This document shows, one piece after another, positions 16,361-60,907 of a DNA stretch of 64,000 nt. The notes beneath the pieces are model-generated. The model saw only the letters and a list, made by a program, of their open reading frames with translations, ran no database searches and was not told the origin of the DNA. Numbering within the stretch: position 1 is the stretch's first letter; every line of letters starts with the position of its first letter. A program made the position numbers and the translations under genes. The DNA comes from Candidatus Aenigmatarchaeota archaeon (lineage in GTDB: Archaea; Aenigmatarchaeota; Aenigmatarchaeia; PWEA01). The stretch covers positions 3,538 through 67,537 of the forward strand of contig PWHK01000002.1 of the NCBI GenBank assembly GCA_003554845.1, read 5' to 3'.

Positions 16361-16628
16361 GGCAGGGAACTTCCGGGTCGACGGAACCGACTGGAAAAGT
16401 TTACCTGTCTTCCTCCTCGGCTCTGCTACCCCCCGAACATCCATACTACAGCTTAGGGCTGCTCCCGCCAGGGCCTGGCCCGTTTCACTGCACCATAGAT
16501 CCCGGAGGACAGAGCTTCGACGTTGGAAAACAGGGCTTTTCCAGCCGGATCTGCCTGGCCGGCTCTTCGGTTGCTCTGTAGAGGATTTGAGCTCCAGATG
16601 ACCCCTAGCCATCCAACCTATCCCTGCC
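16361..16628 (-). ncRNA. Signal recognition particle RNA (7S/SRP RNA)
   Basis: GC-rich island. Minus strand contains helix-8-like GGUGCAGUGAAACGGGCCAGGCCCUGGCGGGAGCAGCC, compared from memory with the E. coli 4.5S GGUGCUG...GGAAGGAAGCAGCC motif. Terminal 8-bp helix ggcaggga/tccctgcc. TTTAAA about 23 nt upstream of the 5' end. Confidence 0.8.
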
Positions 16629-16656: not shown

Positions 16657-16740
16657 GGGTTTTCGGTCCGGTTTTAGGCACTACATTTATCTATGTATTT
16701 AAGCTTTAACCTACTTATTTTTTTACTATTCAGTGATAGA

Positions 16741-17514
16741 ATGAAACCTCTGTATACTCTTCCGGAGCATCACTTTAAGGTAGGAGAAGATCTTGAGGAA
16801 AAGCTGAGAACTGCCGATAACGAACCTTCCCGTCAGATTCTATCCCACTGCGACAGAAGAATGGAGAAGTTTCGAAAAGCCGTTGATGAATACAATCCAG
16901 AAGTGATTTTTTTGGAAGGAGACGATGATTTCAAAAACATTTTAGACAAACTTGACTATGACGGTGAAGTAGTCTTTTTGGACAAGGACATAGAAGAATA
17001 CCATTCCATTGTGGAGAAAATAGAGGAAGTGCAAAGAAAGTACCAGCCCAAGATGAATGAGATCTGGGAAAGAACCCAGGAAATTCGTGAATCCGAAACC
17101 AAGTCCGATTACAGAAAGGAAGCCAAGGATCTGGCAAGACTTTTTACCGAGGAGAGCGAAGATCTTGGGGAGCTTATCGAATCCTATAAGAAGGAAGTAG
17201 GTGTTTTAAGAGAAGGGAAGTGGTCGGATCTGATAGCTGAAAAATACAGGGAACCTTCGCTGCTTAACTGTGGTTTTCATCATTTGAATAAAGATTTTAA
17301 GAGGGTAGGAAGGATGTCGTATTATTCTTTTATGGGAGGCGATGGCAATGAAGATCTTCCGGAGAGAAATTTCTATTCAGATTCTCTAATGATAACTAAG
17401 TCCCTTCTCAAATCCTTCTTTTCGAAGTTCTTTTCGAGTGACGATATTGGATATCTCCCCGAAAAACTGAAGTCCAGAGATATTGATGTCTTTGTGGTTG
17501 ACTTCCTTAAGTAG
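16741..17514 (+). CDS. Hypothetical protein (likely start MKPLYTLPE at 16741; track ORF starts at 16693)
   Basis: About 257 aa, charged, protein-like composition, no motif recognised. Confidence 0.5.
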   Translation: MKPLYTLPEHHFKVGEDLEEKLRTADNEPSRQILSHCDRRMEKFRKAVDEYNPEVIFLEGDDDFKNILDKLDYDGEVVFLDKDIEEYHSIVEKIEEVQRKYQPKMNEIWERTQEIRESETKSDYRKEAKDLARLFTEESEDLGELIESYKKEVGVLREGKWSDLIAEKYREPSLLNCGFHHLNKDFKRVGRMSYYSFMGGDGNEDLPERNFYSDSLMITKSLLKSFFSKFFSSDDIGYLPEKLKSRDIDVFVVDFLK

Positions 17515-18463: not shown

Positions 18464-18512
18464 GTAAGGGTTCTTTGAACCTATTTAAATCTCAGAAGAC
18501 AATTTTTTCTTC

Positions 18513-19136
18513 ATGTCTGAAATTATAGGCCGTGGTGCTGAAGCAGTCCTGAGAAAGGAAGAGTTCATGGATAAATACTCTGTTGTCAAGGAAAGACTGA
18601 AAAAAGGATACAGGGTCGATGAACTGGATACAAGGCTCAGGAAGGAGAGAACAAAGATAGAGGCAAAGCTTCTTTCCGAGGCAAGGCGCGTTGGTGTTTC
18701 AACGCCCCAGGTCTACGGCAGGGAGGACAACATTCTGAAAATAGAGTTTCTGGACGGCGACAAGGTCAGGGATGTAGTGCCTAAATACAACACCAAAAAG
18801 AGAAAAAACCTTTCCGAGACCATAGGAGAAAACATAGCTAAGCTTCATGGTCGCGGCATCGTTCACGGTGACCTTACGACTTCTAATATGATAATAGTGG
18901 ATGGAGATCTTTATTTCATAGATTTTGGTCTCGGGTATTTTTCGGACAGCGTAGAGGACAAGGCCGTTGACCTCTATCTTCTATGGGAGGTTCTCGAAAG
19001 CACACACCCTGACTACAGGAAGGAGATGTGGATTTCTATCACCGGAAGTTACAAGGAAGCATACAGGGATGCAGAAAGAGTTCTCAAAAGGGTTGATGAA
19101 ATAGGTAAGAGGGGTAGATATGTCTCTGAAAGATAG
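18513..19136 (+). CDS. bud32: Kae1-associated kinase Bud32 (KEOPS subunit)
   Basis: 207 aa atypical small kinase. GAEAV N-lobe, catalytic loop HGDLTTSNMI, IDFGL. Confidence 0.85.
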   Translation: MSEIIGRGAEAVLRKEEFMDKYSVVKERLKKGYRVDELDTRLRKERTKIEAKLLSEARRVGVSTPQVYGREDNILKIEFLDGDKVRDVVPKYNTKKRKNLSETIGENIAKLHGRGIVHGDLTTSNMIIVDGDLYFIDFGLGYFSDSVEDKAVDLYLLWEVLESTHPDYRKEMWISITGSYKEAYRDAERVLKRVDEIGKRGRYVSER

Positions 19137-20097
19137 AATACTGGGTAGGGAAAAATTGAAGAGAAGGGTAGAGTCTCTGGAGTCGGAGATCGAAGATATG
19201 AAGAGCCTTAAAAGAGATCTCGAAAGGAAGGCATCCAAGGAGGAAAAAAGAGCCAAGGAGGCGGTATCGAAGATGCAGGGCCTCCATGAAGAGATAAACC
19301 GTAAGAAAGACAGAATAAAATCCCTCGAGGACAAGATTACTAAGAAAGATCTTATCGAGAAGGCCGTTGGTTCGAAGTCCGGCGAAAGAACCATGGGAAG
19401 ACAGAAGACGAAAAAACTTCTGGAAAAGATAGAGAACATGGTAAGCAGCGAAGAAGATCTTCTCACTGTTTCGATTCCATCTGGATCGTCGCTGCGGGAT
19501 ATAGATTCCGATGGATTTATACAGACAAGTCTGACATTAAACCAGCTCAAGAGACTCAGAGACGAGAAATCAGAAACAGGTAAAGTTTTCTTCCACTGTC
19601 CGGACCTCTTCAACATTCTTCTCAAACCACCTATTCCTGTTCAAAATGAAGACTGGCATGTAGACTCGAACTTTGACATAGGCCTTGTTTCGGACATACT
19701 ACAGTCTCGTGTTGGTTTTGTATTTCTGTCTGCGGGTGGATCTGCAGTCGCGGTCTTTGGTGATACAATAGAGGACTACAGTATCGTGAAGAGCAGCGTA
19801 AAAAGTAAACATAAAAAGGGAGGATTCAGTCAGGACAGATTCAAAAGATCCAGGGACGAGGACATAAAGAACCATATAGAAAAGACCGTGAAGGCCCTGG
19901 GGGAAACAGTTCCCGGGGATATAGGTTTGTTTGCAGTGAGCGGCTCAAAGAAGATGGTATCTATGCTAACAGAACATAGTTTTTTTGAAGACAGGAAGAT
20001 ATTTGAAAGGAGCCTTAATCTCTCCAGGATCGTCGAAGAGGACGATCTTAAAAAGGCATTCAGGGAGTTCTGGTCCACCGAGGTTACTCACCTTTGA
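19120..20097 (+). CDS. eRF1-domain-2-like protein (VLRF1/baeRF-like) with N-terminal coiled coil; GGQ replaced by GGF
   Basis: 325 aa. KHKKGGFSQDRFKRSRDEDIKNHIEKTVKAL compares with aRF1 KHKAGGQSQRRFERLREEAAHEFFKRV as I recall it. DIGLFAVSGSKKM resembles GIIIGGPGPTK. First 100 aa K/E coiled coil. Overlaps bud32 by 17 nt. Confidence 0.65.
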   Translation: MSLKDRILGREKLKRRVESLESEIEDMKSLKRDLERKASKEEKRAKEAVSKMQGLHEEINRKKDRIKSLEDKITKKDLIEKAVGSKSGERTMGRQKTKKLLEKIENMVSSEEDLLTVSIPSGSSLRDIDSDGFIQTSLTLNQLKRLRDEKSETGKVFFHCPDLFNILLKPPIPVQNEDWHVDSNFDIGLVSDILQSRVGFVFLSAGGSAVAVFGDTIEDYSIVKSSVKSKHKKGGFSQDRFKRSRDEDIKNHIEKTVKALGETVPGDIGLFAVSGSKKMVSMLTEHSFFEDRKIFERSLNLSRIVEEDDLKKAFREFWSTEVTHL

Positions 20098-21337
20098 ACT
20101 CGACCTCTTCTGTATCCCGAACCACCGGACCTTGCTTTATTCTGTGTTCTATGTAGATGGTTCCCAGTGTCGTTACAACCGAGGTTCCAAGTATAACAGA
20201 AAACACTATCTCAGGGAATATCTCTGTTCCAGGTATACCGTATTCGATTACTGGAGCAGATGCCAGAACGGCAGCCGCCAGACCTCTCGGGGACATGAAT
20301 ATCATTATCCACTTTTCCATGGTACTGAAGCCGCTACGTATCGATACTATTTGGACTGCAATAAACCTTGTTATAATTATGATGCCTGTGAGTATAGCTC
20401 CGTAGAGAAATAGTGGGGGATTTTCAAAGGTTATGATTATTCCAAGAATAACAAAGAAAAAGGTCTTAACAAAGAAGGATATCTGGTTCTGGAACTCCTT
20501 TGTTTTTTCGGCAAGTCCCAGATATTTTTTCTCGAGACCAAGCATGACACTTACCTTTTTGGCATTTCCAAGAACAAGTCCTGCCACAAAGGATGCAACT
20601 GCTCCCTGTCCTCCTAGTATCTGTGTGGATGCGTATACAAAGAAGAGAAACGAAAGGGTAAGCATATAGTGAAAATCCTCACCTCTTATATGTCTCAGAA
20701 CGTTGAGCCACAGTATTCCCGAGACAAATCCAACTACAATGGAAACAGAGAAGGTTGAGACAACTCCTGATATTCCTTGGCCTGTAAGGGAATTAATTCC
20801 TGTTCCTCCTATGATCATATCTATGAGAACCAGTGCGACTATTATACAGAGTGGATCGGTTATAACCGATTCTATATCCAGGACAAGTCGAGACTTCTGT
20901 CCGAAATCCTCGAGTTCCGAAACAACAGGTATGACTATTGCAGAGGACACGCCTCCTACTATTGATCCCAACAACAGGGACTCAACGGGACCAAGTCCAT
21001 CGAACACCAGAAATGAAAGGCCGCTAACCGCGGCAGCTGATAACACAAAGCCTAAAACTGCCAGCAGTGAGCCGCGTGGAACTTCCCTTAAAACCCTGTC
21101 TATCTTTAGATTCAGGCCTCCGTCGAACAGTATCATGAGAAGGGCCAGGGCAGATACGTAGGGTGTTATCTCCAGAAAAACGCTTCTTTCGAATATCCCG
21201 AGAACAGGGCCGAGGAGAACACCAAGTAGGAGAAGAAAAAGTATGTCAGGGATCTTCGTCTTTTTGAAGACATAGTTTCCAAGGAATCCTATGCCTATTA
21301 CGGACGCAATTATAAGAAACAGGAGTCCTATGTCCAT
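20084..21337 (-). CDS. Cation:proton antiporter (Na+/H+ exchanger family)
   Basis: 417 aa, about 11-12 TM helices. N-terminal MDIGLLFLIIASVIGIGFLGNYV...LLLGVLLGP typical of CPA-type exchangers. Confidence 0.7.
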   Translation of the reverse strand: MDIGLLFLIIASVIGIGFLGNYVFKKTKIPDILFLLLLGVLLGPVLGIFERSVFLEITPYVSALALLMILFDGGLNLKIDRVLREVPRGSLLAVLGFVLSAAAVSGLSFLVFDGLGPVESLLLGSIVGGVSSAIVIPVVSELEDFGQKSRLVLDIESVITDPLCIIVALVLIDMIIGGTGINSLTGQGISGVVSTFSVSIVVGFVSGILWLNVLRHIRGEDFHYMLTLSFLFFVYASTQILGGQGAVASFVAGLVLGNAKKVSVMLGLEKKYLGLAEKTKEFQNQISFFVKTFFFVILGIIITFENPPLFLYGAILTGIIIITRFIAVQIVSIRSGFSTMEKWIMIFMSPRGLAAAVLASAPVIEYGIPGTEIFPEIVFSVILGTSVVTTLGTIYIEHRIKQGPVVRDTEEVEFKGE

Positions 21338-21415: not shown

Positions 21416-21775
21416 ATGGAAGACGAAACTATTGAAGGCGAGGTTCTCGAACTGGATGAATCACAGTTCAACTGTTTGGTGTGTGACGAGCTACTGGAGT
21501 TCGACTTTGACACGGATGGACCTATAGAGCCTGAGTCAGACGGCGAGCTTCCCAAGGAGTTCAAAGAAAATATTGCTACACCGGAGAACTTTACAGATGA
21601 GGTGGATAGTGGCATGGATGAAAACACAGAGGAAACAATGAGAATAGACTGTGTCTGTGGAGCCGAGTATTTGATCAGGAAGATTCCAGGAGTCCCTGGA
21701 TTTGAAGTTATACATATGATAGAAAGTGAGCCGGAGCTTGCCGAAAAAGAGTTTGAGCAGGAGTTTGAAATTTAA
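21416..21775 (+). CDS. Small acidic Cys-containing protein, unknown function
   Basis: 119 aa, very acidic, CLVCDE...CVCGAEY. Confidence 0.4.
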   Translation: MEDETIEGEVLELDESQFNCLVCDELLEFDFDTDGPIEPESDGELPKEFKENIATPENFTDEVDSGMDENTEETMRIDCVCGAEYLIRKIPGVPGFEVIHMIESEPELAEKEFEQEFEI

Positions 21776-21808: not shown

Positions 21809-23647
21809 ATGGTTCCAGATCTTTTTCCGTTTGAAAATGTCCGCTCCGGTCAGGACAGAATTATATCCGATGCCAGGGAGGTTCTCATAGAGGGAAAAAA
21901 TCTTATAGCACATGCTCCTTCGGGCCTTGGAAAAACTGCTGCCTCTCTTTCATCGAGCCTTTCCTATGGAATGGAAAACAACAAAACAGTCTTCTTTCTT
22001 ACACCTAAGCATTCTCAGCACAGGATAGCCGTAGAGACAGCAGAGAAGATCATGGACAAGCATCCGGTTGATATCACAGTTGCCGATATAATAGGAAAGA
22101 GATGGCTTTGTAGCGCAGACGGGATACGTGATATGAGCTCCTCGGATTTCCACAACTACTGTAAGACCCTCAAGGAAGAGGAGAGATGTAGGTACTACAA
22201 CAACACATTTTCCGATAGGTCTTCACTTTCCGATAAAGCCGTAAAAAAGCTGTCCGAGCTCAAGGGAAGGGCTCTGATGGCAGAGGAGATAAAGAAGAAG
22301 ACTGAGAATTTATGTACGTACGAGATCCTGGTTAACCACGCAAAACAGGCAGACCTTATAATAGGTGACTACTTCCATATATTCCATCCAGGTGTCAGAG
22401 AAGCTTTTCTTACCAAGTCAGGGAAGACATTGAAGGACTCCATACTTGTCGTGGATGAGGCACATAACCTGCCTTCTAGAACACGCAGCCTTCTTTCGAA
22501 GAGGCTCAGTACCTATCAGATCTCAAGGGCACAGACAGAAGCAGACGAGTTTGGTTACCTCGAGGAGAGGAGGATCCTGGAGGGTCTCGAAGACATGCTT
22601 TTCGATATAGGAGGTGGCATGGAGGACAAAGAGGAGGAGATATCAAAGGACGACCTGATGGATAGGATAGAAGACTACGATACACTCATCGATAGGATGG
22701 AAAGGGTTGCCCAGGATGTATACGAGGAAGAAGACAGAAGCCACTGCTCGTCCATAAAGGACTTTCTCGAGGCATGGAAGGGCAAGGACACAGGCTTTGT
22801 CAGATTCATGCGAAAGAAAAGATCCAGAAACGGAAATACATACTACACGTGCTTCTACGAGTGCCTTGATCCACAGTTATCAACAAGGGAGGTTTTTGAT
22901 ACAGTTCACTCGTCTATTCTGATGTCGGCGACGCTTACTCCTATGCAGATGTATTCCGACCTTCTTGGACTGGCAGAAGGCAAGACGGTCAAGAACGTAT
23001 ATTCTTCTCCATTTCCCGAGGAAAATCGATCCTATCTTGTTGTTGACTCTGTTACCACGAAGTATAAGGAGAGAAACGAAGAACAGTACCAGAAGATAGC
23101 CTGGTTTCTGTCTAAGAGTCTTGAGAAGGTTCCTGGAAATGCCTCAGCGTTTTTTCCTTCCTATAGATTACGTGACAAGGTCAAGGACATGGTAAATACA
23201 GATAAGAGGGTTTTACTCGAAAGGAGAAACATGTCAAAGAAGGAGAAATCAGATCTCCTTGATATTTTCAAAAACGAGAGCAACTGTGTCCTCCTTGGGA
23301 TATCCGGGGCTTCCTTTTCCGAGGGTGTTGATTTTCCAGGTAGGTGCATGGATGCTGTCTTTGTTGTAGGCCTTCCTCTAAGGGAACCGGACCTTGAAAC
23401 AAGGGCACTTATAGACTTCTATGAGTACAAGTTCGGGAAGGGTTGGGACTATGCCTACATCTATCCTGCCATGAAGAAGGCCATGCAGGCCGCAGGGAGA
23501 TGTATAAGAACAAAGAACGACAGAGGGGCGATGGTCTTTATGGACAAAAGATATACATGGAACAACTACAGGAAGGTCTTTCCTCCCGAGGTAGATCTTG
23601 AAAAAACAAAGGCACCATGGAAGGAAATAGAACAGTTTTTTCAGTAG
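21809..23647 (+). CDS. xpd: XPD/Rad3-family 5'-3' DNA helicase with FeS domain
   Basis: Walker A HAPSGLGKT. Four-Cys cluster region (WLCSADG...YCKTL...RCRYYN...LCTYE). DEAH box VVDEAHNL. C-terminal motifs. Likely start MVPDLFPF (21809); track ORF starts at 21785. Confidence 0.9.
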   Translation: MVPDLFPFENVRSGQDRIISDAREVLIEGKNLIAHAPSGLGKTAASLSSSLSYGMENNKTVFFLTPKHSQHRIAVETAEKIMDKHPVDITVADIIGKRWLCSADGIRDMSSSDFHNYCKTLKEEERCRYYNNTFSDRSSLSDKAVKKLSELKGRALMAEEIKKKTENLCTYEILVNHAKQADLIIGDYFHIFHPGVREAFLTKSGKTLKDSILVVDEAHNLPSRTRSLLSKRLSTYQISRAQTEADEFGYLEERRILEGLEDMLFDIGGGMEDKEEEISKDDLMDRIEDYDTLIDRMERVAQDVYEEEDRSHCSSIKDFLEAWKGKDTGFVRFMRKKRSRNGNTYYTCFYECLDPQLSTREVFDTVHSSILMSATLTPMQMYSDLLGLAEGKTVKNVYSSPFPEENRSYLVVDSVTTKYKERNEEQYQKIAWFLSKSLEKVPGNASAFFPSYRLRDKVKDMVNTDKRVLLERRNMSKKEKSDLLDIFKNESNCVLLGISGASFSEGVDFPGRCMDAVFVVGLPLREPDLETRALIDFYEYKFGKGWDYAYIYPAMKKAMQAAGRCIRTKNDRGAMVFMDKRYTWNNYRKVFPPEVDLEKTKAPWKEIEQFFQ

Positions 23648-24006: not shown

Positions 24007-24116
24007 GGGGGCTTCTCCTCACGTTACTGCGAGTAGCATAGAAATTGTAGGTTGTGATTAAAAAGCTTTGTGGCGTCCAAACAGTTAAATTATTTCAAAA
24101 TTACAATAGTTGTAAA

Positions 24117-25115
24117 ATGAAGAGGATATCTGCACCGGGTAATATCTTCCTGTTGGGTGAGCATTCAGTTGTATACGGAAGGCCTGCGTTGCTTGCCTCT
24201 ATAGACAGAAGAACATATGTCTCGGGCCGAAAAAAAGAAGGCAGGAGTGTTGAAGTGGAGTCCTGTGGCTATGGCAGTATAGATTCGGACCTCTCTGGAC
24301 TTCTTAAGAGGGTATACAGAACCCAGGATGCATATAATGATCCCATGGACCCGATAAGGGATCTCATTGGAAGTTTCAGCAGTATAAAGAATATGGACAC
24401 AGGTTTTGAGGCAAGTATAGAGTCCGATATACCTAGGGACTCGGGTGGTCAGAGCAGTTCCACTGCGGTACTGGCTGCTTTTTTTGATTTTCTCTGTGGG
24501 ATATACGGGGTGTCAATGGAGAGAAAACTGTATTTTTCACATCTCTATCCCTTCCAGGTCAAGATACACGGCGGAGCAGCATCCGGTTCGGAGTTTGCAT
24601 CCAGTATACTTGGAGGGTACAACAGAGTTGCAAAGACTCCTGGCGGTGAAGTGCCTGTGGATTTCAAAAATATGGGGAACCTAGAACTCGATCTTGTCAT
24701 AGGCGATACAGGTATAGAGGCCAAGACAGACAAGACAGTTGGCCACGTAAGGCAGTGTTTGAAAGAAGACAGAGAGACCTACGAGACATATTTCAATAGT
24801 ATAGATGATCTTGTCGAAGGTGCAGAGAAGGCGATCAAAAACCAAAACCTTCCCAGACTTGGAAGCCTCATGGACAAAAACCACAGGATACTTCGGAGAA
24901 TGGGAGTCTCACATAGGAAACTTGATAGACTGGTCGATGCCGCGAGGGACGCCGGAGCCCTCGGGGCAAAACTTTCCGGTGGTGGAGGCGGAGGAATTAT
25001 GGTTGCACTCTGCGACGAAACTAATAAAAGGGATATCAAACAAGCAATAGAAGAGGCAGGCGGAGATGGCTGTATTACGGAGGTAGGTGTTGATGGAGTC
25101 AGAAGAGAGGTTTAG
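24117..25115 (+). CDS. mvk: Mevalonate kinase (GHMP kinase)
   Basis: N-terminal SAPGNIFLLGEHSVVYG. GHMP phosphate loop PRDSGGQSSSTAV. Gly-rich KLSGGGGGGIMVAL. ATG at 24117 (track ORF has a GTG start at 24054). Confidence 0.85.
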   Translation: MKRISAPGNIFLLGEHSVVYGRPALLASIDRRTYVSGRKKEGRSVEVESCGYGSIDSDLSGLLKRVYRTQDAYNDPMDPIRDLIGSFSSIKNMDTGFEASIESDIPRDSGGQSSSTAVLAAFFDFLCGIYGVSMERKLYFSHLYPFQVKIHGGAASGSEFASSILGGYNRVAKTPGGEVPVDFKNMGNLELDLVIGDTGIEAKTDKTVGHVRQCLKEDRETYETYFNSIDDLVEGAEKAIKNQNLPRLGSLMDKNHRILRRMGVSHRKLDRLVDAARDAGALGAKLSGGGGGGIMVALCDETNKRDIKQAIEEAGGDGCITEVGVDGVRREV

Positions 25116-25118
25116 AAA

Positions 25119-26030
25119 ATGTCAAGACAGGTAAAGGACTACAGCGTTTCAGGCGGCATAGATCTGGAAGAACTTGTCAAGCAGATGGAGGAGTCAGGAG
25201 GCTTCCAGGCGAAAAACGTTGGAACTGCTGCTGATATTTTAAAGGAGATGTCGGAAGACGGAGAGTCAACAAACTTTCTTTCGTTTCCTGCATGTATAAT
25301 ATCTACAGGCACAAGGGGAATAGTCCGTGATCTCTTAAAGGAAAATGTATTTGATGCCGTCGTCACTACGTGCGGCACCCTGGACCACGATGTGGCACGT
25401 TATTTTTCGGACTACCATCACGGAAGCTTTACAGCCGACGACAGAGATCTTCACCAGAAGGAGACACACCGTCTTGGTAATATCTTTATTCCACAGTCCT
25501 CCTATGGGCAGGTGGTGGAGGAAAACGTACAGCCTTTACTCGAGGAGATAAACAAGGAAAAGGATAACCTTGCACCCTATGAGCTGGTATGGGAGCTCGG
25601 AAAAAGGATGGACGAGACTACTATATGCTACTGGGCCTGGAAGAACAGAATACCGATCTTCGTTCCGGGTATAACAGATGGTGCAGTAGGGACCCAGGTA
25701 TGGTTCTTCAGACAGGATCACGACTTCACAGTCGACGTCTGGAAGGACGAGGATATGATATCGGAGATGGTATTTGATGCAGAACGAACCTCGGGCCTTA
25801 TACTGGGTGGGGGAATATCCAAACACCATACAATATGGTGGAATCAGTTCATAGACGGTTTGGACAGGGCCGTATACGTGACCACAGCCGTTGAATGGGA
25901 CGGTTCTCTCTCCGGCGCCAGACCGGAAGAGGCTATTTCATGGAGTAAGATAAAGGAAGAGGGTAGGACAGTCGAGGTAAAAGGCGATGCTACAGTAATT
26001 TTACCGCTTGTTGTTTCCTCTGTGCTCTGA
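25119..26030 (+). CDS. dys: Deoxyhypusine synthase
   Basis: 303 aa. ISTGTRGIVRDLL and ILGGGISKHH resemble the DHS NAD/spermidine site motifs (GGGxPKHH). Confidence 0.8.
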   Translation: MSRQVKDYSVSGGIDLEELVKQMEESGGFQAKNVGTAADILKEMSEDGESTNFLSFPACIISTGTRGIVRDLLKENVFDAVVTTCGTLDHDVARYFSDYHHGSFTADDRDLHQKETHRLGNIFIPQSSYGQVVEENVQPLLEEINKEKDNLAPYELVWELGKRMDETTICYWAWKNRIPIFVPGITDGAVGTQVWFFRQDHDFTVDVWKDEDMISEMVFDAERTSGLILGGGISKHHTIWWNQFIDGLDRAVYVTTAVEWDGSLSGARPEEAISWSKIKEEGRTVEVKGDATVILPLVVSSVL

Positions 26031-26101
26031 TAATATAGTCAGATGACGAGCGGCATTGAAGGCAATTTTTATATATTTATTTGAGTCATTAATGGGGTAG
26101 T

Positions 26102-27403
26102 ATGAGTCTCAGGGAGTTTTTAGGGGACGTGGAAGAGAAAAATGTTCTCAGCCAGTCTGTTAGTCCCGACTACGAGCTTCCTGCCCTGATTTCAAAGGAC
26201 GAGACAAAGCCGGTTATTTTTGAAGATGTCGATGGTTATCCCGATTGCCGAGTGGTTTCAAACATTGTTTCTTCCCGGAGTATGCTTGCCAGGGCCCTTT
26301 GCACAACCAGGGAGAATATAATAGATAAGATAAGCAGTTCTCTTGACAACCAGATGAAGTGTGTGGTCGGCGAACCTATGTTTGAAAAGGTAGCCGAAGA
26401 GCCTAATATAAAGGAGCATATACCAGTTCCGATATTTTATAAGAGAAAAAAAAGACGGTACTTTGCTTCTGCTATGGTAGTGGCCAAGGACCCGGAAACA
26501 AGAATACAGAACGTTTCTTTCCACCGTCTAATGCTAAAGGATGAAAACAGGATGGTCATGCGGCTTGTGAAGAGACATCTCTACGACATCTACAGCAAAA
26601 CAGACGGTGACCTGAAGGTCGCTGTAATCATGGGCGTCCATCCTGCAGTTGAAGTTGCTGCAGCTACATCCTTTTCTCCCGAGATGGATGAACTTGAACT
26701 TGCAAACTCCTATATGGACGGAGGACTGGAACTGGCCGAGGTCAACGGGCTTAAGGTTCCAAGGGACTCGGAGGTTGTCATGTTTACAAGGATAAAGAAG
26801 AAGGAAGACGAAGAAGGTCCTTTTGTGGATCTTTCGGATACATGGGACAGGATACGAGAGCAACCCGTTATGGTTGTTGATGAACTATGGATGAGAAAGG
26901 ATCCACATATACGCATACTACTTCCGGGAAAGGGTGAACACAAGAACCTCATGGGAGTTCCACAGGAACCGAGGATATACAAGATCGTGAAGAATACAGT
27001 TCCCGCCGTTAAAAATGTTGTTCTTACACAAGGGGGATGTTCTTGGCTACATGGTGTTGTACAGATAAAGAAGAGAAACGAGGGAGATCCAAAGAATGCA
27101 GGTATTGCGGCACTGGCTGCTCATCCATCCATGAAGAAAGTAACCATAGTAGATGGAGATATAGATCCTTCGGATTCCGGTGAAGTGGAATGGGCAACTG
27201 CAACTCGCATGCAGCCAGATAAGGATATACTTTTCATAGAGCGTGCTAAGGGTTCCTCCCTTGATCCATCCCAGGACTATGAAAACAAGCTCACAACAAA
27301 ATGGATTGTAGACGCAACGGTTCCCTTTGAAAACAAGGATCCGGATGAGTTCAAAAAGGCCAGACTACCGGGCGAGGACCTGGATCTCGATGACTACAGG
27401 TGA
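26102..27403 (+). CDS. UbiD-family decarboxylase (candidate trans-anhydromevalonate-5-phosphate decarboxylase)
   Basis: 433 aa UbiD-like pattern. Sits between mvk and the AcnX/UbiX/IPK genes. Confidence 0.75.
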   Translation: MSLREFLGDVEEKNVLSQSVSPDYELPALISKDETKPVIFEDVDGYPDCRVVSNIVSSRSMLARALCTTRENIIDKISSSLDNQMKCVVGEPMFEKVAEEPNIKEHIPVPIFYKRKKRRYFASAMVVAKDPETRIQNVSFHRLMLKDENRMVMRLVKRHLYDIYSKTDGDLKVAVIMGVHPAVEVAAATSFSPEMDELELANSYMDGGLELAEVNGLKVPRDSEVVMFTRIKKKEDEEGPFVDLSDTWDRIREQPVMVVDELWMRKDPHIRILLPGKGEHKNLMGVPQEPRIYKIVKNTVPAVKNVVLTQGGCSWLHGVVQIKKRNEGDPKNAGIAALAAHPSMKKVTIVDGDIDPSDSGEVEWATATRMQPDKDILFIERAKGSSLDPSQDYENKLTTKWIVDATVPFENKDPDEFKKARLPGEDLDLDDYR

Positions 27404-27990
27404 ATTCCATGGACAAGGAAGAATTTTCCAGGATAAGGGAACTTTACGGAGAGGAAGATGTTATACCGGCCCATTCCTTTGATAATCATGTTTTAGAAGT
27501 CTACAGAAATGCAAAGAAACTTTTAGAAGATGAGGACGTCGACAGCGAGGTGGTAAAGTACTCAGCTCTTCTTCACGACGTTGGAAGGCATATATCCGGG
27601 GAGGAGAGCCATGCAGAGAAGGGTGCTGAAAAGGCCAATGAGTTTCTGATCGAACAACTTGGAAAGGACAGTAGTTTTGCAGAAAGGGTTTCGGAGTGTA
27701 TAAGGTTCCATTCAAACAGACCACATCTTAAGCCTCCCACAAGAGAAGCCGAGATTCTTTGGACAGCGGACAAGATGGATGCGATGGGTGCCACTGGTCT
27801 TTGTAGGTTTTTACTGACCCTCGGCGCAAAGAACTACTCGTGTGAAAGTGCGGTTGATATTCTTGATAGGAGGGTTTCCGAGGCCGAGGAAAGTCTCAAA
27901 GACTTTGGATTCGACGAGCTTATAGATGGTCTGAATACCTTAAAGAGCTTTACAGAACAGTACAAGGAGGAGAATCATGTATCTAACTGA
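27400..27990 (+). CDS. HD-domain metal-dependent phosphohydrolase
   Basis: 196 aa. H...HD motif SALLHDVGRH plus downstream His/Asp (RFHSNRPH, ADKMDAMG). Confidence 0.75.
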   Translation: MNSMDKEEFSRIRELYGEEDVIPAHSFDNHVLEVYRNAKKLLEDEDVDSEVVKYSALLHDVGRHISGEESHAEKGAEKANEFLIEQLGKDSSFAERVSECIRFHSNRPHLKPPTREAEILWTADKMDAMGATGLCRFLLTLGAKNYSCESAVDILDRRVSEAEESLKDFGFDELIDGLNTLKSFTEQYKEENHVSN

Positions 27991-29155
27991 TGAAGAAAAA
28001 GAGATGCTTGAGTCGGACAACCCGGCGGTAAGGAAGGCCATGAAGCTACTGGTCAAACTGGGTGATATATACGGAGCCGATGAGATGGTAGAGATAACTT
28101 CTGCCCAGGCCTCCGGTGTTTCATATAAATCCATAGGCGATCCCGGTATTATGTTTCTCAGGGAGTTCGCCGACGAAGGAGCAAAGGTTTCAGTACCTAC
28201 CTTTGCTAATCCTGCAGGAATGGACCTTGAGAAGTGGGAAGAGATGCACATAAGCAAGGAGTTTGCAGAGAAGCAGAAACAGATTATAGAGGCCATGAAG
28301 AGCATGGGGATAACAATATCTTCATCGTGTACTCCATACCTCTGGAGCAATCTCCCTACGAGAAATGAGCATATAGCGTGGGCGGAATCCTCTGCCGTAT
28401 CCTTCGCAAACTCTGTTATAGGCGCAAGGACAAACAGAGAAGGTGGACCTTCTGCTCTTGCTGCCGCCATAACAGGAAGAACTCCTAAACACGGACTCCA
28501 TCTGGATGAAAACAGAGTACCAACCCATGTTGTTGAGATAGACGCCGAACTGAATAGTATATCAGACTTCGGTGCCCTTGGCTCGTGGACAGGTGGAAAG
28601 GTAGAGGACGGCAAGCCTTACTTTATCGGCGTTGACTCTGCAGGTACGGATAAACTTAAGTCACTCGGTGCTGCAATGGCAGCTTCCGGGGCCGTGGCTC
28701 TTTACTTTGTTGAAGGTATAACTGCGGATCCCATGGAAGTCTCGGGCCTTGAGAGACTCAAGTTCACCGAAAGGGACAAAAGAGAAGAGTACGGCAGGCT
28801 GACAGAGTCCGAGGATCCGGATCTTGTGGTCTTTGGGTGTCCCCACTGTTCTATAAACGAAATAGAAAATATTGCAAAGAAGCTGGAGGGCAAGACTCTG
28901 GATAAGGATCTATGGGTTTTCACGAGTAAGGCGGTTGAGGCATGGTCCGATAGGATGGGTTATACGGATATAATTGAAAAGGCAGGAGGCAAGGTATTTT
29001 CTGATACATGTAACGTTGTCTGCCCCATAGAGGAGATGAACTACGGAAGGATGGGAACCAACTCGGGTAAGGCGGCAAACTACCTCCCTGGATTCTGTAA
29101 GCAGAAGGTTATGTTTGCAGATACCGGCGATCTAATCGACAAGGTGTTAAAATGA
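27977..29155 (+). CDS. Aconitase X catalytic subunit (phosphomevalonate dehydratase large subunit, DUF521)
   Basis: 392 aa. N-terminus MYLTDEEKEMLESDNPAVRKAMKLLVKLGDIYGADEMVEITSAQ typical of AcnX. Followed by the small-subunit gene with a 4-nt overlap. Confidence 0.8.
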   Translation: MYLTDEEKEMLESDNPAVRKAMKLLVKLGDIYGADEMVEITSAQASGVSYKSIGDPGIMFLREFADEGAKVSVPTFANPAGMDLEKWEEMHISKEFAEKQKQIIEAMKSMGITISSSCTPYLWSNLPTRNEHIAWAESSAVSFANSVIGARTNREGGPSALAAAITGRTPKHGLHLDENRVPTHVVEIDAELNSISDFGALGSWTGGKVEDGKPYFIGVDSAGTDKLKSLGAAMAASGAVALYFVEGITADPMEVSGLERLKFTERDKREEYGRLTESEDPDLVVFGCPHCSINEIENIAKKLEGKTLDKDLWVFTSKAVEAWSDRMGYTDIIEKAGGKVFSDTCNVVCPIEEMNYGRMGTNSGKAANYLPGFCKQKVMFADTGDLIDKVLK

Positions 29156-29553
29156 ATGTAGAAGTCAGATGTATTACAGAGGGAAGTGCAGACGGAGAGC
29201 TACTGGTTTCAACCGAACCCATAGGGTTCTACGGAGCCGTGGATATAGATACAGGTGAGTTTATAGAGGAAGGACATCAGCTTGAGGGTGAAAACATCTC
29301 GGGAAAGATACTGGTTTTTCCAAAGGGCAAGGGATCTACTGTTGGTTCCTACGTTCTCTATGGTCTCTCAAAGAAGGGAAATGCTCCTGCGGCCATAGTA
29401 AATCAGGAGACCGAAACCATAGTTGCAACAGGCTGTATACTTGGTGAAATACCATGTGTCGATGGTTTTGACATACCTCTCGGTGAACTTGAAAATGGGA
29501 TAGGTGTCCACGTGGATGCTGACATAGGAAAGGTTGAAATAAGAGGTGTGTAG
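29152..29553 (+). CDS. Aconitase X swivel-domain subunit (phosphomevalonate dehydratase small subunit, DUF126)
   Basis: 133 aa. ILVFPKGKGSTVGSYVLYGL...APAAIVN...ATGCILGEIP pattern. Confidence 0.8.
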   Translation: MNVEVRCITEGSADGELLVSTEPIGFYGAVDIDTGEFIEEGHQLEGENISGKILVFPKGKGSTVGSYVLYGLSKKGNAPAAIVNQETETIVATGCILGEIPCVDGFDIPLGELENGIGVHVDADIGKVEIRGV

Positions 29554-39238: not shown

Positions 39239-40600
39239 TCAAAGTTTTTTTCTATATCCCATCGATGACCTACCCTTCGATTCAAAGTCATACCGATTTA
39301 TCTCTGCTCCTAAATCTTCTTCGTATAGTGACTTTTCTCTGGGGTTACCTTCTTCTTTAAGTTTAAAGGGATCTTCGTTTCGTACAAACTCATAACTGTC
39401 GTCTTCCTTGATATTTTCTAAGAACTGTTCAGGTGCAGTGTTTCTTGATACTCCGATTGCTGGGTAAAAAATTTCAGATACGCCTTTGCTTTCTGCATAG
39501 TCTTCTATAGATTTTTTTATTGTTTCCGAAACATCCTTACGGTTGAGTGGTAGATTTTTGGATTCAACAGAGTCCACCAGGAGAATATTCTTCTTATCTT
39601 CCTCTTCGGTTTTACCATACCGATCTCCGTATCCCATTATAGCCCACGCCTCTCTATCTTTTCCTACATTAAACTTCATGAGATCTATGTCGTCCCTTGC
39701 CATATATTTGAAGATGCCAGCGGACTGATTTACAGTCCTGTCATTTCTCCCGGTTAGAAATGCACAACACTGTGTATCCCTATAGGTTGGCATATCATCG
39801 AGGTTTTTTGACCATATCTCTGTCTTAAGGACATTTCCTATGCTGTTGTATCCATCGGTATCGAGTTTCTGAATCTTATCTTCAACTTCTTTTAATGTAT
39901 CGCCACCCACATAAGATTTTATATCGTCAAGGCACCTTTCCATTTCTTCGTAGGATTCATCCGAGGAATCTATTTCATATTTTTCAACTGCTGAAACCAC
40001 TTCTCTTCTTTCAAAATCCTTAATCTCCTTTTTTATCTCTTCTTTCCTTTTCCCCACATCCTTACCTTCTTCAACCCTTCCTTTTTTGAATAGTTCTCCG
40101 GCCTTCATATCAAGGTTTTCTATTCTACCCTTCATTTCAAGGTAGTCTATAGGGTTCTTGCTGTTGATTACCTTTTCTAGATCTTCCATATCATCCGGCA
40201 GCTCTATGCGTCTTTTACCTTGTACTATTTTTCCCAGGAGTTCATGTGCATTTCTGTAAGCTTTTTTCCTGGCCCTTTCTATGTAATCTTCGTCTTCGAC
40301 TCTTTCCCCTTTGCTTATCATATATTCGTTGCAGTATCTTGATTCCCTGTCAAAATACTCTTCAACAAATTCGTCGATTGGCATCCCAACTGTATCTTTG
40401 AAGCCACCGCCTTCGTTTTTTTCTTCAAGGGCCTTGAGATCATCTATGAGGAGTTCCGATTTGTCGTTATCGATAAGTTTATTGCTTGTTTCCTTGTCTA
40501 TTCCGAAATAATTGGATACTACATCTTCCAACGACTCTTCCTCTGCGTTCTCATAGTCTTCTTCAAATAGTGATATTGTGTAGTTTTCATCCCTTGACAT
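39239..40600 (-). CDS. Large acidic hypothetical protein
   Basis: 453 aa, Glu/Asp-rich. Contains QCCAFLTGRNDRT and AWAIMGYGDRYGK segments. No recognised motif. Confidence 0.5.
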   Translation of the reverse strand: MSRDENYTISLFEEDYENAEEESLEDVVSNYFGIDKETSNKLIDNDKSELLIDDLKALEEKNEGGGFKDTVGMPIDEFVEEYFDRESRYCNEYMISKGERVEDEDYIERARKKAYRNAHELLGKIVQGKRRIELPDDMEDLEKVINSKNPIDYLEMKGRIENLDMKAGELFKKGRVEEGKDVGKRKEEIKKEIKDFERREVVSAVEKYEIDSSDESYEEMERCLDDIKSYVGGDTLKEVEDKIQKLDTDGYNSIGNVLKTEIWSKNLDDMPTYRDTQCCAFLTGRNDRTVNQSAGIFKYMARDDIDLMKFNVGKDREAWAIMGYGDRYGKTEEEDKKNILLVDSVESKNLPLNRKDVSETIKKSIEDYAESKGVSEIFYPAIGVSRNTAPEQFLENIKEDDSYEFVRNEDPFKLKEEGNPREKSLYEEDLGAEINRYDFESKGRSSMGYRKKL

Positions 40601-60253: not shown

Positions 60254-60907
60254 ATGAACTTTCCTGTTCTTTTTGTAAACTTCAAGACATACAGAGAGGC
60301 AACAGGGGAGAAGGCAGTTGAGCTGGCCAGGATATGTCAGAATGTTTCAAGACAGACCAACAAACAAGTAGTTCCTGTAGTACAGGTTTCGGATCTCTAC
60401 AGGGTTTCAAAGACCGTTGATATTCCTGTATACGTCCAGAGGGTTGATCCTGTCACATACGGTTCCAACACAGGAAGCGTTCTTCCTGAGGGTCTTAAAC
60501 AGAACGGAGCCTCTGGTGTGGTCATAAACCATTCCGAGGACAGGAGAACCGATGATGTTGTGAGAAGATGTCTGGAGAGATGCAGGGACCAGAAACTTGA
60601 AGCTATGGTATGTGCAAAGAATCCGTCGGAAGCGGAAAGTATATCTAGTATGAACCCCGACATTGTAGCAATAGAACCACCTGAGTTTATAGGCGGTGAT
60701 ATTTCCGTCAGTAATGCAAAACCGAAGATCATAACCCGCTCAAGGAAAAAGGTTTCACAGCCTTTGATCTGTGGAGCCGGTATAAGGAAAAAAGAGGACG
60801 TTCAGAAAGCAATCGATCTCGGAGCAGATGGAATATTTGTTGCCTCGGGTGTTGTAAAGACTGAAGATCCTGAAAACAGCATAAAAAAACTTGTAAGTCC
60901 CTTCTAA
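60254..60907 (+). CDS. tpiA: Triosephosphate isomerase (short archaeal type)
   Basis: 217 aa. FVNFKTY, catalytic INHSE, GAGI, phosphate loop. Confidence 0.9.
   Translation: MNFPVLFVNFKTYREATGEKAVELARICQNVSRQTNKQVVPVVQVSDLYRVSKTVDIPVYVQRVDPVTYGSNTGSVLPEGLKQNGASGVVINHSEDRRTDDVVRRCLERCRDQKLEAMVCAKNPSEAESISSMNPDIVAIEPPEFIGGDISVSNAKPKIITRSRKKVSQPLICGAGIRKKEDVQKAIDLGADGIFVASGVVKTEDPENSIKKLVSPF

What the first reader, a model, noticed from the sequence alone, without database searches (positions are those of the whole stretch)
18513..20097. eRF1-domain-2-like protein with GGQ changed to GGF and an N-terminal coiled coil, translationally coupled to Bud32
The ORF at 19120..20097 aligns by eye with the aRF1/eRF1 catalytic domain 2. 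Its KHKKGGFSQDRFKRSRDE compares with KHKAGGQSQRRFERLRE from my recalled M. jannaschii aRF1 sequence, and DIGLFAVSGSKKM resembles the following Rossmann-like strand. The stop-codon-recognition domain is replaced by a 100-aa K/E coiled coil. The catalytic Gln of GGQ is Phe, which should abolish peptidyl-tRNA hydrolysis. Its start overlaps the 3' end of the Bud32 (KEOPS kinase) gene by 17 nt, implying co-expression. This looks like a member of the barely characterised VLRF1/baeRF-type release-factor-like families, perhaps a ribosome-associated quality-control or rescue factor.
Basis: partly seen in the sequence, partly recalled or inferred. Interest (0 to 1): 0.65.

Follow-up and report, generated by a model that had tools for sequence, protein, structure and literature searches.

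The report
Archaeal Vms1-like release factor (aVLRF-1)
This gene encodes an ordinary member of an already described but never experimentally tested archaeal family of Vms1-like, stop-codon-independent release factors, and both its "GGF" motif and its overlap with the Bud32 gene turn out to be unremarkable.

Summary
Both ORFs, the quoted peptide strings and the 17-nt overlap are real. [quoted passage not shown] It has a long N-terminal coiled coil, a degenerate eRF1 N-like domain, an RNase-H-fold release-factor domain and no Pelota domain. Pfam acVLRF1 scores 59.6 bits against a 27.1-bit cut-off. NCBI already names homologues "Vms1/Ankzf1 family peptidyl-tRNA hydrolase".

GGF is not a lesion. 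The published family signature is GGxSQ. In 96 diverse relatives the x position is always aromatic (F, W or Y) and the Gln two residues later is invariant. This loop is the best-conserved stretch of the protein, which argues against a dead enzyme.

The stop-codon domain is not replaced by the coiled coil. It is retained as a fold but has lost NIKS and GTS.

The Bud32 gene sits directly upstream only in six closely related, fully syntenic MAGs. It is absent from about 70 other family loci. Overlapping genes are also common in this compact genome.

The most likely function is stop-codon-independent release of nascent chains from stalled ribosomes or 50S subunits. The chemistry, ester hydrolysis or tRNA CCA cleavage, is unresolved.

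The parts
18482..18489 (+). TATA-like box (TATTTAAA) centred about 27 nt upstream of the bud32 ATG. This is the likely promoter of a leaderless bud32-aVLRF1 bicistronic transcript.
   Evidence: Read directly from the sequence. A CTATTTAAG/A motif lies at the same distance in the window, L001, L003, L004 and L005, with weaker versions in L002 and L006. The promoter function is inferred and not tested.
18513..19136 (+). bud32, the KEOPS kinase/ATPase subunit, 207 aa.
   Evidence: TIGR03724 arch_bud32 219.4 bits (cut-off 125) and Pfam RIO1/Pkinase. 62-73% identical orthologues lie in the same position in L001-L006.
19109..19114 (+). Shine-Dalgarno-like GAGGGG, 5 nt upstream of the aVLRF-1 ATG, inside the bud32 3' end.
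   Evidence: Sequence. The motif is invariant in all 7 syntenic sequences, including at the synonymous Arg-codon position.
19120..20097 (+). aVLRF-1 gene (archaeal Vms1-like release factor), 325 aa plus stop.
   Evidence: ORF. Pfam acVLRF1 59.6 bits against GA 27.1. Full-length homologues share a conserved N-terminus (M1, D5, G9), which fixes the start codon. NCBI's name for homologues is 'Vms1/Ankzf1 family peptidyl-tRNA hydrolase'.
19126..19365 (+). N-terminal coiled-coil helix, residues 3-82.
   Evidence: AF2 predicts a single helix over residues 3-82 with block pLDDT 79-89. A regular 3-4 hydrophobic heptad spacing is seen by eye in the translation. There are weak SMC/Rad50-type coiled-coil hits. 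Q53 (98%) and L20 (93%) are conserved family-wide.
19387..19704 (+). Degenerate eRF1 N-domain-like (stop-codon-binding-like) domain, residues 90-195.
   Evidence: AF2 predicts an alpha/beta domain with pLDDT about 72-92. In the hhalign alignment to eRF1 residues 13 to about 140, the TASNIKS helix/loop is deleted, GTS is replaced, and YxCxxxF survives as W179-x-V-x-x-x-F185. F185 is 89% conserved and W179 is not conserved family-wide.
19705..20094 (+). RNase-H-fold release-factor (eRF1 domain-2 / VLRF1) domain, residues 196-325. The protein ends here, with no Pelota/eRF1_3 domain.
   Evidence: Pfam acVLRF1 covers residues 197-323 and eRF1_2 covers 198-289. Foldseek matches the isolated eRF1 M-domain structure 2hst with TMt 0.56, and 4crm_X. 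pLDDT is 86-96 over most of the domain.
19810..19854 (+). Catalytic-loop signature H231-K-K-G-G-F-S-Q-D-R-F-K-R-S-R245. GGFSQ lies at 19819..19833.
   Evidence: Translation. G234, G235, S237 and Q238 are 100% conserved; H231, K233, R240, F241 and R245 are at least 95% conserved; position 236 is F 56, W 26, Y 15 among 97 sequences. This matches the published GGxSQ family motif.

Best explanation
The 325-aa protein is a canonical member of the archaeal Vms1-like release-factor family (aVLRF-1).

Its RNase-H-fold domain is a homologue of the eRF1/aRF1 M-domain. It is predicted to enter the ribosomal A site and place its strictly conserved H-x-K-G-G-[F/W/Y]-S-Q-x-R-F-x-R-x-R loop at the peptidyl-transferase centre. 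There it would release the nascent chain from P-site peptidyl-tRNA.

The N-like domain has lost the NIKS, GTS and YxCxxxF stop-codon readers. The C-terminal domain that binds the delivery GTPase and ABCE1 is absent. Release should therefore be independent of a stop codon and of a GTPase, as expected for a rescue or quality-control factor. The likely substrates are stalled ribosomes, or 50S-peptidyl-tRNA complexes left after Pelota/ABCE1 splitting. This would be the archaeal counterpart of the Vms1/ANKZF1 step of eukaryotic RQC.

The heptad-repeat N-terminal helix probably mediates oligomerisation or an extra ribosome contact.

In this lineage only, the gene is the second cistron of a two-gene bud32-aVLRF1 transcript. 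I read that arrangement as a local, compact-genome operon rather than a functional KEOPS link.

Shown: fold, homology, architecture, motif conservation, the limited extent of the Bud32 linkage, and operon anatomy.
Inferred: ribosome binding, release activity, substrate, and chemistry (ester hydrolysis versus Vms1/ANKZF1-type cleavage of the tRNA 3'-CCA).

My confidence in family membership is about 0.9. My confidence that the protein is an active nascent-chain release factor is about 0.55.
For: - Family and fold. Pfam acVLRF1 59.6 bits (GA 27.1), with eRF1_2 and baeRF10 just below their cut-offs. TIGR03676 aRF1 gives a partial hit, E=1.5e-11. PDB phmmer hits are all eRF1/aRF1. The AF2 model has pLDDT 85. 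Foldseek ranks eRF1/aRF1 at E about 3e-11, then Balon, Pelota, and Vms1 6r84_R at E=1.4e-3. hhalign to eRF1 gives 97.5% over residues 92-291.
- Published description. The architecture and motif match aVLRF-1: coiled coil, then a stop-codon-binding-like domain, then the RF-PH domain, with no Pelota domain and a GGxSQ motif (PMC6514570).
- Existing annotation. NCBI names homologues Vms1/Ankzf1 family peptidyl-tRNA hydrolase.
- Loop conservation. GG[F/W/Y]SQ is present in all full-length relatives found by an exhaustive HMM search. The loop segment has mean identity 0.70 against 0.28-0.41 elsewhere, with Q238, S237, G234 and G235 at 100%.
- Precedent for the Gln. Vms1 release depends on the Gln of its GxxQ motif (PMC7026593), and G235-F-S-Q238 fits GxxQ.
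- Decoding motifs lost. No C-domain hit.
- Operon anatomy.
Against: - No experiment exists for any aVLRF-1 member in the searched literature.
- In an ungapped alignment, with the same loop length as eRF1, the aromatic residue and not Q238 occupies the position of the canonical catalytic Gln. Q238 aligns with a non-essential position, Ala in eukaryotic eRF1. The equivalence of Q238 to the catalytic Gln is therefore an inference from the literature, not something shown here.
- I could not superpose the model on ribosome-bound eRF1 or Vms1.
- No conserved gene neighbour such as Pelota, ABCE1 or RqcH supports an RQC role.
- Burroughs & Aravind note that prokaryotic VLRF-1s occur independently of other RQC components.
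- The loop-motif counts are biased, because one of the two scan patterns required GGFSQ.
Confidence: 0.6

Rival explanations
1. Catalytically dead A-site mimic. Loss of the GGQ Gln (Phe236) would make the protein a non-hydrolytic ribosome binder. It would act like Dom34/Pelota or the Balon-type baeRFs, as a splitting, blocking or hibernation factor rather than a release enzyme.
For: - Phe236 aligns ungapped with the catalytic Gln of eRF1/aRF1.
- Structural neighbours include the non-catalytic Balon and Pelota.
- baeRF_family10 gives a near-threshold hit.
- No activity data exist.
Against: - Inactive aeRF-1 families have poorly conserved loops of variable length and lack a conserved Gln (PMC6514570). 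Here the loop is the best-conserved segment, with invariant GG, S and Q and an always-aromatic x.
- The protein lacks the C-domain through which Pelota and Balon engage GTPases or ABCE1.
- From my own knowledge of the release-factor literature, not tested here: in class-I RFs the Gln side chain is not strictly required for catalysis, whereas the two Gly residues are. An aromatic residue at that position therefore does not by itself predict a dead enzyme.
Confidence: 0.2
2. Vms1/ANKZF1-type nuclease chemistry. The protein would release the nascent chain not by ester hydrolysis but by cutting the tRNA acceptor end, removing CCA and leaving a 2',3'-cyclic phosphate. The conserved aromatic residue would stack on an acceptor-end base. 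This is a variant of the best explanation that differs only in chemistry.
For: - ANKZF1/Vms1, the only characterised VLRF-1 clade members, are reported to cleave off the 3'-CCA (PMC7026593).
- An invariant aromatic residue at the loop tip is what one would expect for base stacking. This point is inference.
Against: - aVLRF-1 is only distantly related to the eukaryotic family. Structurally it is much closer to eRF1 (E=3e-11) than to Vms1 (E=1.4e-3).
- Its loop has eRF1 length and keeps the GG pair.
- The nuclease-versus-hydrolase question is disputed even for Vms1.
Confidence: 0.2
3. Functional partnership with Bud32/KEOPS. The translationally coupled operon would reflect a real link, for example Bud32 phosphorylating or regulating the release factor, or a joint role in tRNA metabolism.
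For: - The 17-nt overlap, the invariant internal SD-like motif and the promoter upstream of bud32 are conserved in all six close relatives that have the upstream flank.
- Both proteins act on tRNA or translation.
Against: - Adjacency is confined to one narrow clade in which the whole 10-gene neighbourhood is syntenic: TraB, Lon-like, AA-kinase, Bud32, VLRF1, Na+/H+ exchanger and XPD.
- 0 of about 70 loci from other lineages have Bud32 adjacent. Two have it 2.7 kb away on the opposite strand.
- Overlaps are common in this window: 11 of 40 same-strand pairs overlap and coding density is about 90%. Overlapping pairs include unrelated genes such as archaemetzincin and DNA ligase.
Confidence: 0.07
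4. An alternative canonical termination factor: a second aRF1 that reads stop codons.
For: It retains an eRF1 N-like domain and a partial YxCxxxF remnant, W179...F185.
Against: - NIKS and GTS are absent, and the helix and loop that carry NIKS are deleted.
- W179 is not conserved across the family.
- There is no C-domain for aEF1alpha.
- TIGR03676 scores 43.8 bits against a 234.7-bit cut-off.
Confidence: 0.03

Closest known systems
aVLRF-1, the archaeal Vms1-like RF-1 family (Burroughs & Aravind 2019, Int J Mol Sci 20:1981; PMC6514570)
   Same: - Same architecture: a long N-terminal coiled coil, a stop-codon-binding-like domain, an RNase-H-fold RF-PH domain, and no Pelota domain.
- Same GGxSQ loop motif and the conserved Arg residues in the following helix.
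- Same archaeal distribution and standalone genomic occurrence.
   Different: - Nothing essential differs.
- Small additions from this work: the x of GGxSQ is always aromatic (F, W or Y) in the full-length archaeal family. The NIKS and GTS decoding elements are lost. One clade places the gene in a bicistronic unit behind bud32.
Classical aRF1/eRF1 class-I release factor
   Same: - Homologous N and M domains. These are the best structural matches, Foldseek E about 3e-11, with hhalign 97.5%.
- Same loop length, and the same H-x-[KR]-G-G-x-S-x-x-R-F context.
   Different: - GGQ is replaced by GG[F/W/Y].
- There is no NIKS or GTS.
- There is no C-domain, so no aEF1alpha/eRF3 or ABCE1 interface.
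- An 80-aa coiled coil is added.
- The protein fails the TIGR03676 cut-off, 43.8 against 234.7 bits.
Eukaryotic Vms1/ANKZF1 (eVLRF-1)
   Same: - Same VLRF-1 clade, according to the literature.
- The GxxQ-type loop fits: G235-F-S-Q238.
- Predicted stop-codon-independent release from stalled large subunits.
- NCBI uses this family name for homologues.
   Different: - It is only a weak structural match: 6r84_R at E=1.4e-3 and 8% identity.
- It lacks the Rei1 zinc finger, the ankyrin repeats, VIM, and the N-terminal extension shared by the b/e families. It has an N-like domain and a coiled coil instead.
acVLRF-1 (Pfam PF18859; NCBIfam NF041024), the actinobacterial/chloroflexi family
   Same: - It is the best Pfam hit, 59.6 bits.
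- It shares the GGxSQ motif.
   Different: - acVLRF-1 lacks the N-like domain and the coiled coil.
- The window protein fails the NF041024 cut-off, 40.7 against 125 bits.
- The short, low-scoring relatives of about 250 aa carry GG[S/Q/T]SQ rather than an aromatic residue.
Dom34/Pelota and Balon-type baeRF-1 (non-catalytic A-site factors)
   Same: The same aeRF-1 superfamily fold. Both appear among the Foldseek hits.
   Different: Those families have degenerate loops without a conserved Gln, and they keep the C-terminal domain. Here the loop is the most conserved element and the C-domain is missing.

Membership tests
aVLRF-1 (archaeal Vms1-like RF-1) | RNase-H-fold aeRF-1 peptidyl-hydrolase (M) domain | tested here: met
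   Pfam acVLRF1 59.6 bits > 27.1, residues 197-323. hhalign 97.5%. Foldseek eRF1 E=3e-11, and the isolated M-domain structure 2hst at TMt 0.56.
aVLRF-1 (archaeal Vms1-like RF-1) | GGxSQ motif in the catalytic loop, followed by conserved Arg residues | tested here: met
   G234-G235-F236-S237-Q238, R240, R243 and R245. GG, S and Q are invariant in 97/97 sequences. The motif is as published.
aVLRF-1 (archaeal Vms1-like RF-1) | Long coiled-coil extension at the N-terminus | tested here: met
   AF2 helix over residues 3-82. Heptad pattern in the translation. Weak coiled-coil-type hits.
aVLRF-1 (archaeal Vms1-like RF-1) | Stop-codon-binding (eRF1 N)-like domain between the coiled coil and the M domain | tested here: met
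   Folded domain over residues 90-195, aligned to eRF1 residues 13 to about 140. Foldseek alignments of about 260 columns cover N plus M.
aVLRF-1 (archaeal Vms1-like RF-1) | No C-terminal Pelota/eRF1_3 domain | tested here: met
   The protein ends at residue 325, directly after the M domain. There is no PF03465 hit.
aVLRF-1 (archaeal Vms1-like RF-1) | Archaeal, standalone occurrence | tested here: met
   247 loci in Methanosarcinales, Halobacteria, Hadarchaeota, Nanohaloarchaea and DPANN-labelled MAGs. No neighbour is shared across lineages.
aVLRF-1 (archaeal Vms1-like RF-1) | Peptidyl-tRNA release activity on ribosomes (predicted for the family) | not testable with these tools
   No experimental paper was found for any archaeal member.
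Classical aRF1/eRF1 | GGQ tripeptide | tested here: not met
   GGF in the window protein and GG[F/W/Y] family-wide.
Classical aRF1/eRF1 | Stop-codon recognition motifs NIKS, GTS and YxCxxxF | tested here: not met
   The NIKS helix/loop is deleted, GTS is replaced, and only W...F of YxCxxxF remains. W179 is not conserved.
Classical aRF1/eRF1 | C-terminal eRF1_3 domain, and the equivalog score | tested here: not met
   No eRF1_3 hit. TIGR03676 scores 43.8 bits against a 234.7-bit cut-off.
Eukaryotic Vms1/ANKZF1 (eVLRF-1) | GxuQ catalytic-loop motif | tested here: inconclusive
   G235-F-S-Q238 fits the pattern. Residue-level alignment to Vms1 could not be made: Vms1 was not retrieved by sequence search, and the Foldseek hit is weak.
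Eukaryotic Vms1/ANKZF1 (eVLRF-1) | Accessory domains: b/e-type N-terminal extension, Rei1 zinc finger, ankyrin repeats, VIM | tested here: not met
   No such Pfam hits. The architecture differs.
acVLRF-1 (PF18859 / NF041024) | Model cut-offs, and an architecture with no N-like domain and a short N-terminal extension | tested here: not met
   The Pfam GA is passed. NF041024 scores 40.7 against 125 bits. The protein also has an N-like domain and a coiled coil. The Pfam model therefore cross-hits a sister family.
Dom34/Pelota or baeRF-type inactive factors | Degenerate catalytic loop without a conserved Gln | tested here: not met
   The loop is the most conserved segment, 0.70 against about 0.3 elsewhere, and Q238 is invariant.
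KEOPS Bud32 (upstream gene) | Equivalog-level match to archaeal Bud32 | tested here: met
   TIGR03724 scores 219.4 bits against 125.

The most novel reading that the evidence does not exclude
The strictly aromatic residue at the position of the canonical catalytic Gln, paired with an invariant Ser-Gln two residues on, marks a release chemistry distinct from both eRF1 and Vms1. One possibility is base-stacking on A76 or C75 with Q238-assisted cleavage. On this reading aVLRF-1 would be the long-missing nascent-chain release enzyme of archaeal ribosome-associated quality control. In this clade it might additionally be regulated by its operon partner Bud32.
Probability: 0.12. Interest if true: 0.65.

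Novelty: already known. Interest (0 to 1): 0.27.

Why it matters
As a discovery it matters little. The family, its architecture and its GGxSQ motif were published in 2019, and public annotation already names homologues Vms1/Ankzf1 family peptidyl-tRNA hydrolases.

The residual value is as a pointer. No archaeal VLRF-1 has been tested experimentally. How archaea release nascent chains from split 50S-peptidyl-tRNA complexes is not established. The family occurs in genetically tractable Haloferax-type and Methanosarcina-type organisms.

The always-aromatic residue at the canonical Gln position gives a sharp mutational test, F236 against Q238. That test bears on the unresolved hydrolase-versus-nuclease debate for the whole VLRF-1 clade.

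Tried and rejected
- Verma et al. 2018 (PMC6226276) is not held. The Vms1 Q295/GxxQ facts are taken from the review PMC7026593.
- Sequence searches of the PDB with the whole protein and with the M domain alone did not retrieve Vms1. The equivalence of Q238 to Vms1 Q295 is motif-level only.
- A get_proteins call with more than 60 ids failed. The sequences were read from the session files instead.
- The cluster look-up returned no source names or accessions for the exact protein. The organism is known only through related MAGs labelled Ca. Aenigmatarchaeota or Nanobdellati, from soda-lake-type metagenomes. I did not verify that label.
- The search for a cross-lineage conserved neighbour found none. 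The FtsJ/RlmE-TRAM gene downstream in Methanosarcinaceae is family-level synteny only. Cluster c34, which I briefly suspected to be a Bud32, was not hit by the Bud32 phmmer search.
- I considered and rejected treating the 17-nt overlap as meaningful in itself, because overlaps are frequent in this window.
- I considered and rejected a second stop-codon-reading aRF1, because the decoding motifs are lost.
- Kae1, Pelota, RqcH and aRF1 were not found among the larger window ORFs that I scanned. Smaller ORFs were not all scanned.
Full report
**1. Observation**

The window contains ORF 18513..19136 (+, 207 aa) and ORF 19120..20097 (+, 325 aa), overlapping by 17 nt. Public gene calls on independent assemblies give the same pair.

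The upstream protein is Bud32 at equivalog level: TIGR03724 scores 219.4 bits against a 125-bit cut-off.

Its resemblance to eRF1 domain 2 is statistically solid:
- Pfam acVLRF1 (PF18859) scores 59.6 bits against a gathering score of 27.1. eRF1_2 (25.5 bits) and baeRF_family10 (26.4 bits) fall just below their cut-offs.
- All significant sequence hits in the PDB are eRF1/aRF1.
- A profile-sequence comparison with a full-length eRF1 gives 97.5% probability over residues 92-291.
- An AlphaFold2 model (mean pLDDT 85, pTM 0.66) finds eRF1/aRF1 as top Foldseek hits, E about 3e-11. Balon, Pelota/Dom34 and, weakly, yeast Vms1 (6r84_R, E=1.4e-3) follow.

**2. Anatomy**

The model has three parts:
- A single long helix, residues 3-82, with regular heptad spacing.
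- An alpha/beta domain, residues 90-195.
- An RNase-H-like domain, residues 198-324.

The middle domain aligns with the eRF1 N (stop-codon-binding) domain. The decoding elements are nevertheless gone:
- The helix and loop carrying TASNIKS fall in a 14-residue deletion.
- GTS is replaced.
- YxCxxxF survives only as W179-x-V-x-x-x-F185. W179 is not conserved across the family.

There is no C-terminal eRF1_3/Pelota domain.

**3. What it is**

This is exactly the architecture that Burroughs & Aravind (2019, PMC6514570) described for their archaeal VLRF-1 family. [quoted passage not shown] The window protein's G234-G-F-S-Q238 is that motif. NCBI already names homologues 'Vms1/Ankzf1 family peptidyl-tRNA hydrolase'. 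A 100%-identical protein is in public collections.

**4. GGF**

The 18 closest homologues all have GGFSQ. The 80 genome loci also do, but that scan used a GGFSQ-containing pattern and is biased.

The unbiased test is an exhaustive HMM search of 1.84 billion representatives. It gave 1135 hits at E<=1e-3 and 64 at E<=1e-30. Among the best 147 hits:
- The full-length coiled-coil proteins carry GGFSQ (64), GGWSQ (32) or GGYSQ (16).
- The short, low-scoring proteins of about 250 aa carry GGSSQ, GGQSQ or GGTSQ. These are presumably acVLRF-1-like.

I aligned 96 diverse full-length relatives with the window protein (19-38% identity to it). Results:
- G234, G235, S237 and Q238 are 100% conserved.
- H231, K233, R240, F241 and R245 are at least 95% conserved.
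- Position 236 is always aromatic.
- The loop segment has mean column identity 0.70, against 0.28-0.41 for the rest of the protein.

GGF is therefore the family state, not a lesion. The loop is the most constrained element, which contrasts with the degenerate loops of inactive Dom34 and most baeRF-1 families.

In ungapped alignments, with the same loop length as eRF1, Phe236 sits where eRF1 has its catalytic Gln, and Q238 aligns with a non-essential position. However, G235-F-S-Q238 matches the GxxQ/GxuQ context of Vms1 Q295, on which Vms1 release activity depends (PMC7026593). Whether Q238, the aromatic residue, or only the GG backbone does the work is untested.

**5. Bud32 linkage**

I ran tblastn and phmmer of the window's neighbouring proteins against the 80 fetched loci.
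- Bud32 lies immediately upstream, overlapping, only in L001-L006.
- Those are close relatives in which the whole neighbourhood is syntenic: TraB, Lon-like, AA-kinase, Bud32, VLRF1, convergent Na+/H+ exchanger, small ORF, XPD helicase. Neighbours are 58-83% identical, while VLRF1 itself is only 39-54% identical.
- L007, the Methanosarcinales, Halobacteria, Hadarchaeota and Nanohaloarchaea loci have no adjacent Bud32.
- Two Methanosarcinales loci, L063 and L064, have one 2.7 kb downstream on the opposite strand.

No other neighbour is shared across lineages. Methanosarcinaceae have an FtsJ/RlmE-TRAM methyltransferase one or two genes downstream, but that is within-family synteny.

Within the close clade the pair looks like a genuine bicistron:
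- A TATA-like TATTTAAA lies about 27 nt before the bud32 ATG, the spacing expected for a leaderless transcript.
- An invariant GAGGGG lies 5 nt before the VLRF1 ATG.
- Both are conserved.

However, the window is about 90% coding, and 11 of 40 same-strand neighbour pairs overlap, including unrelated genes. The overlap is therefore not a special signal.

**6. Mechanism**

The best-supported reading is that the M domain enters the A site and presents the conserved loop to the peptidyl-transferase centre, releasing the nascent chain from P-site peptidyl-tRNA.

The protein has no decoding motifs and no GTPase/ABCE1-binding C domain. It should therefore act independently of a stop codon and of a GTPase, as a rescue or quality-control factor. 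The likely substrates are stalled ribosomes or split 50S-peptidyl-tRNA complexes, analogous to Vms1/ANKZF1.

The chemistry is open: ester hydrolysis, or CCA cleavage as reported for ANKZF1. The role of the coiled coil is also open: oligomerisation or an extra ribosome contact. All of this is inference from homology. I found no experimental paper on any archaeal or actinobacterial VLRF-1.

Rivals, with my confidence in each:
- A non-catalytic A-site mimic (0.2). This is disfavoured by the loop conservation.
- A real Bud32 partnership (0.07). This is disfavoured by the distribution of the linkage.
- A second stop-codon-reading aRF1 (0.03). This is refuted by the loss of the decoding motifs.

**7. 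Context and verdict**

The window is ordinary archaeal housekeeping DNA. It carries:
- SRP RNA, CysRS and ThrRS
- deoxyhypusine synthase
- archaeal mevalonate-pathway genes
- DNA ligase and topoisomerase
- ABCE1 and Cdc48

None of these is linked to the locus.

The finding is a correct identification of a known, computationally described family. Interest is low to moderate. It comes only from the family being experimentally untouched, and from the aromatic-for-Gln substitution offering a clean test of VLRF-1 chemistry.

Noticed in passing
window 19276..19278 (Q53) and 19177..19179 (L20) of the aVLRF-1 coiled coil: Within the otherwise poorly conserved coiled coil, Gln53 is 98% and Leu20 is 93% conserved across 97 diverse family members. 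Gln53 lies next to a core heptad position. It may mark a specific contact or a register-setting residue.
   Followed up: partly
loci L008-L064 (Methanosarcinaceae), e.g. L069 7182..7979: In 43 Methanosarcinaceae loci the aVLRF-1 gene is followed, one or two genes downstream on the same strand, by an FtsJ/RlmE-type rRNA methyltransferase fused to a TRAM domain (PF01728, 187 bits). In Methanolobus-type loci a DUF7109 protein lies in between. This looks like family-level synteny, but the theme fits, since RlmE modifies the 23S A-loop.
   Followed up: partly
window 16361..16628 (-): Archaeal SRP RNA (RF01857, 129 bits) lies between the Lon-like protease gene and the 273-aa hypothetical gene. Several spurious ORFs overlap it.
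   Followed up: yes
window 20084..21337 (-): A convergent Na+/H+ exchanger gene overlaps the 3' end of the aVLRF-1 gene by 14 nt. Two other convergent pairs also overlap (23641..23647 and 60904..60907), so the genome is very compact at about 90% coding.
   Followed up: yes
window 47986..49743 (+), 57969..60248 (+), 45412..46602 (-): ABCE1/RLI (NF009945, 841 bits), a Cdc48-type double-AAA ATPase and a YchF-related GTPase lie in the same window, but 25-40 kb from the aVLRF-1 gene. No linkage is implied.
   Followed up: partly
window 24054..29553 (+): A cluster of archaeal-type mevalonate-pathway genes (GHMP kinase, UbiD-like decarboxylase, AcnX large and small subunits) has deoxyhypusine synthase (25119..26030) embedded in it. 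Several genes overlap by 4-14 nt.
   Followed up: no
window 39239..40600 (-) and 50279..51556 (+): Two large ORFs (453 aa and 425 aa) have no Pfam or NCBIfam hit at E<=1e-5. The second overlaps by 4 nt a 567-aa ORF that carries an AP_endonuc_2/TIM-barrel domain.
   Followed up: no
window 53292..54671 (+): A 459-aa ORF has only a nucleotidyltransferase (NTP_transf_2) domain hit and no NCBIfam match. I could not establish whether it is the CCA-adding enzyme.
   Followed up: partly
window 16693..17514 (+) and 21416..21775 (+): Two acidic hypothetical proteins (273 aa and 119 aa) have no family hit. The 119-aa one is conserved, at 54-73% identity, in the same position between the Na+/H+ exchanger and XPD in the syntenic MAGs.
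   Followed up: partly
loci L001-L006 versus window: In the syntenic clade aVLRF-1 evolves markedly faster (39-54% identity) than its neighbours Bud32 (62-73%), XPD (76-83%) and the Na+/H+ exchanger (58-78%).
   Followed up: no
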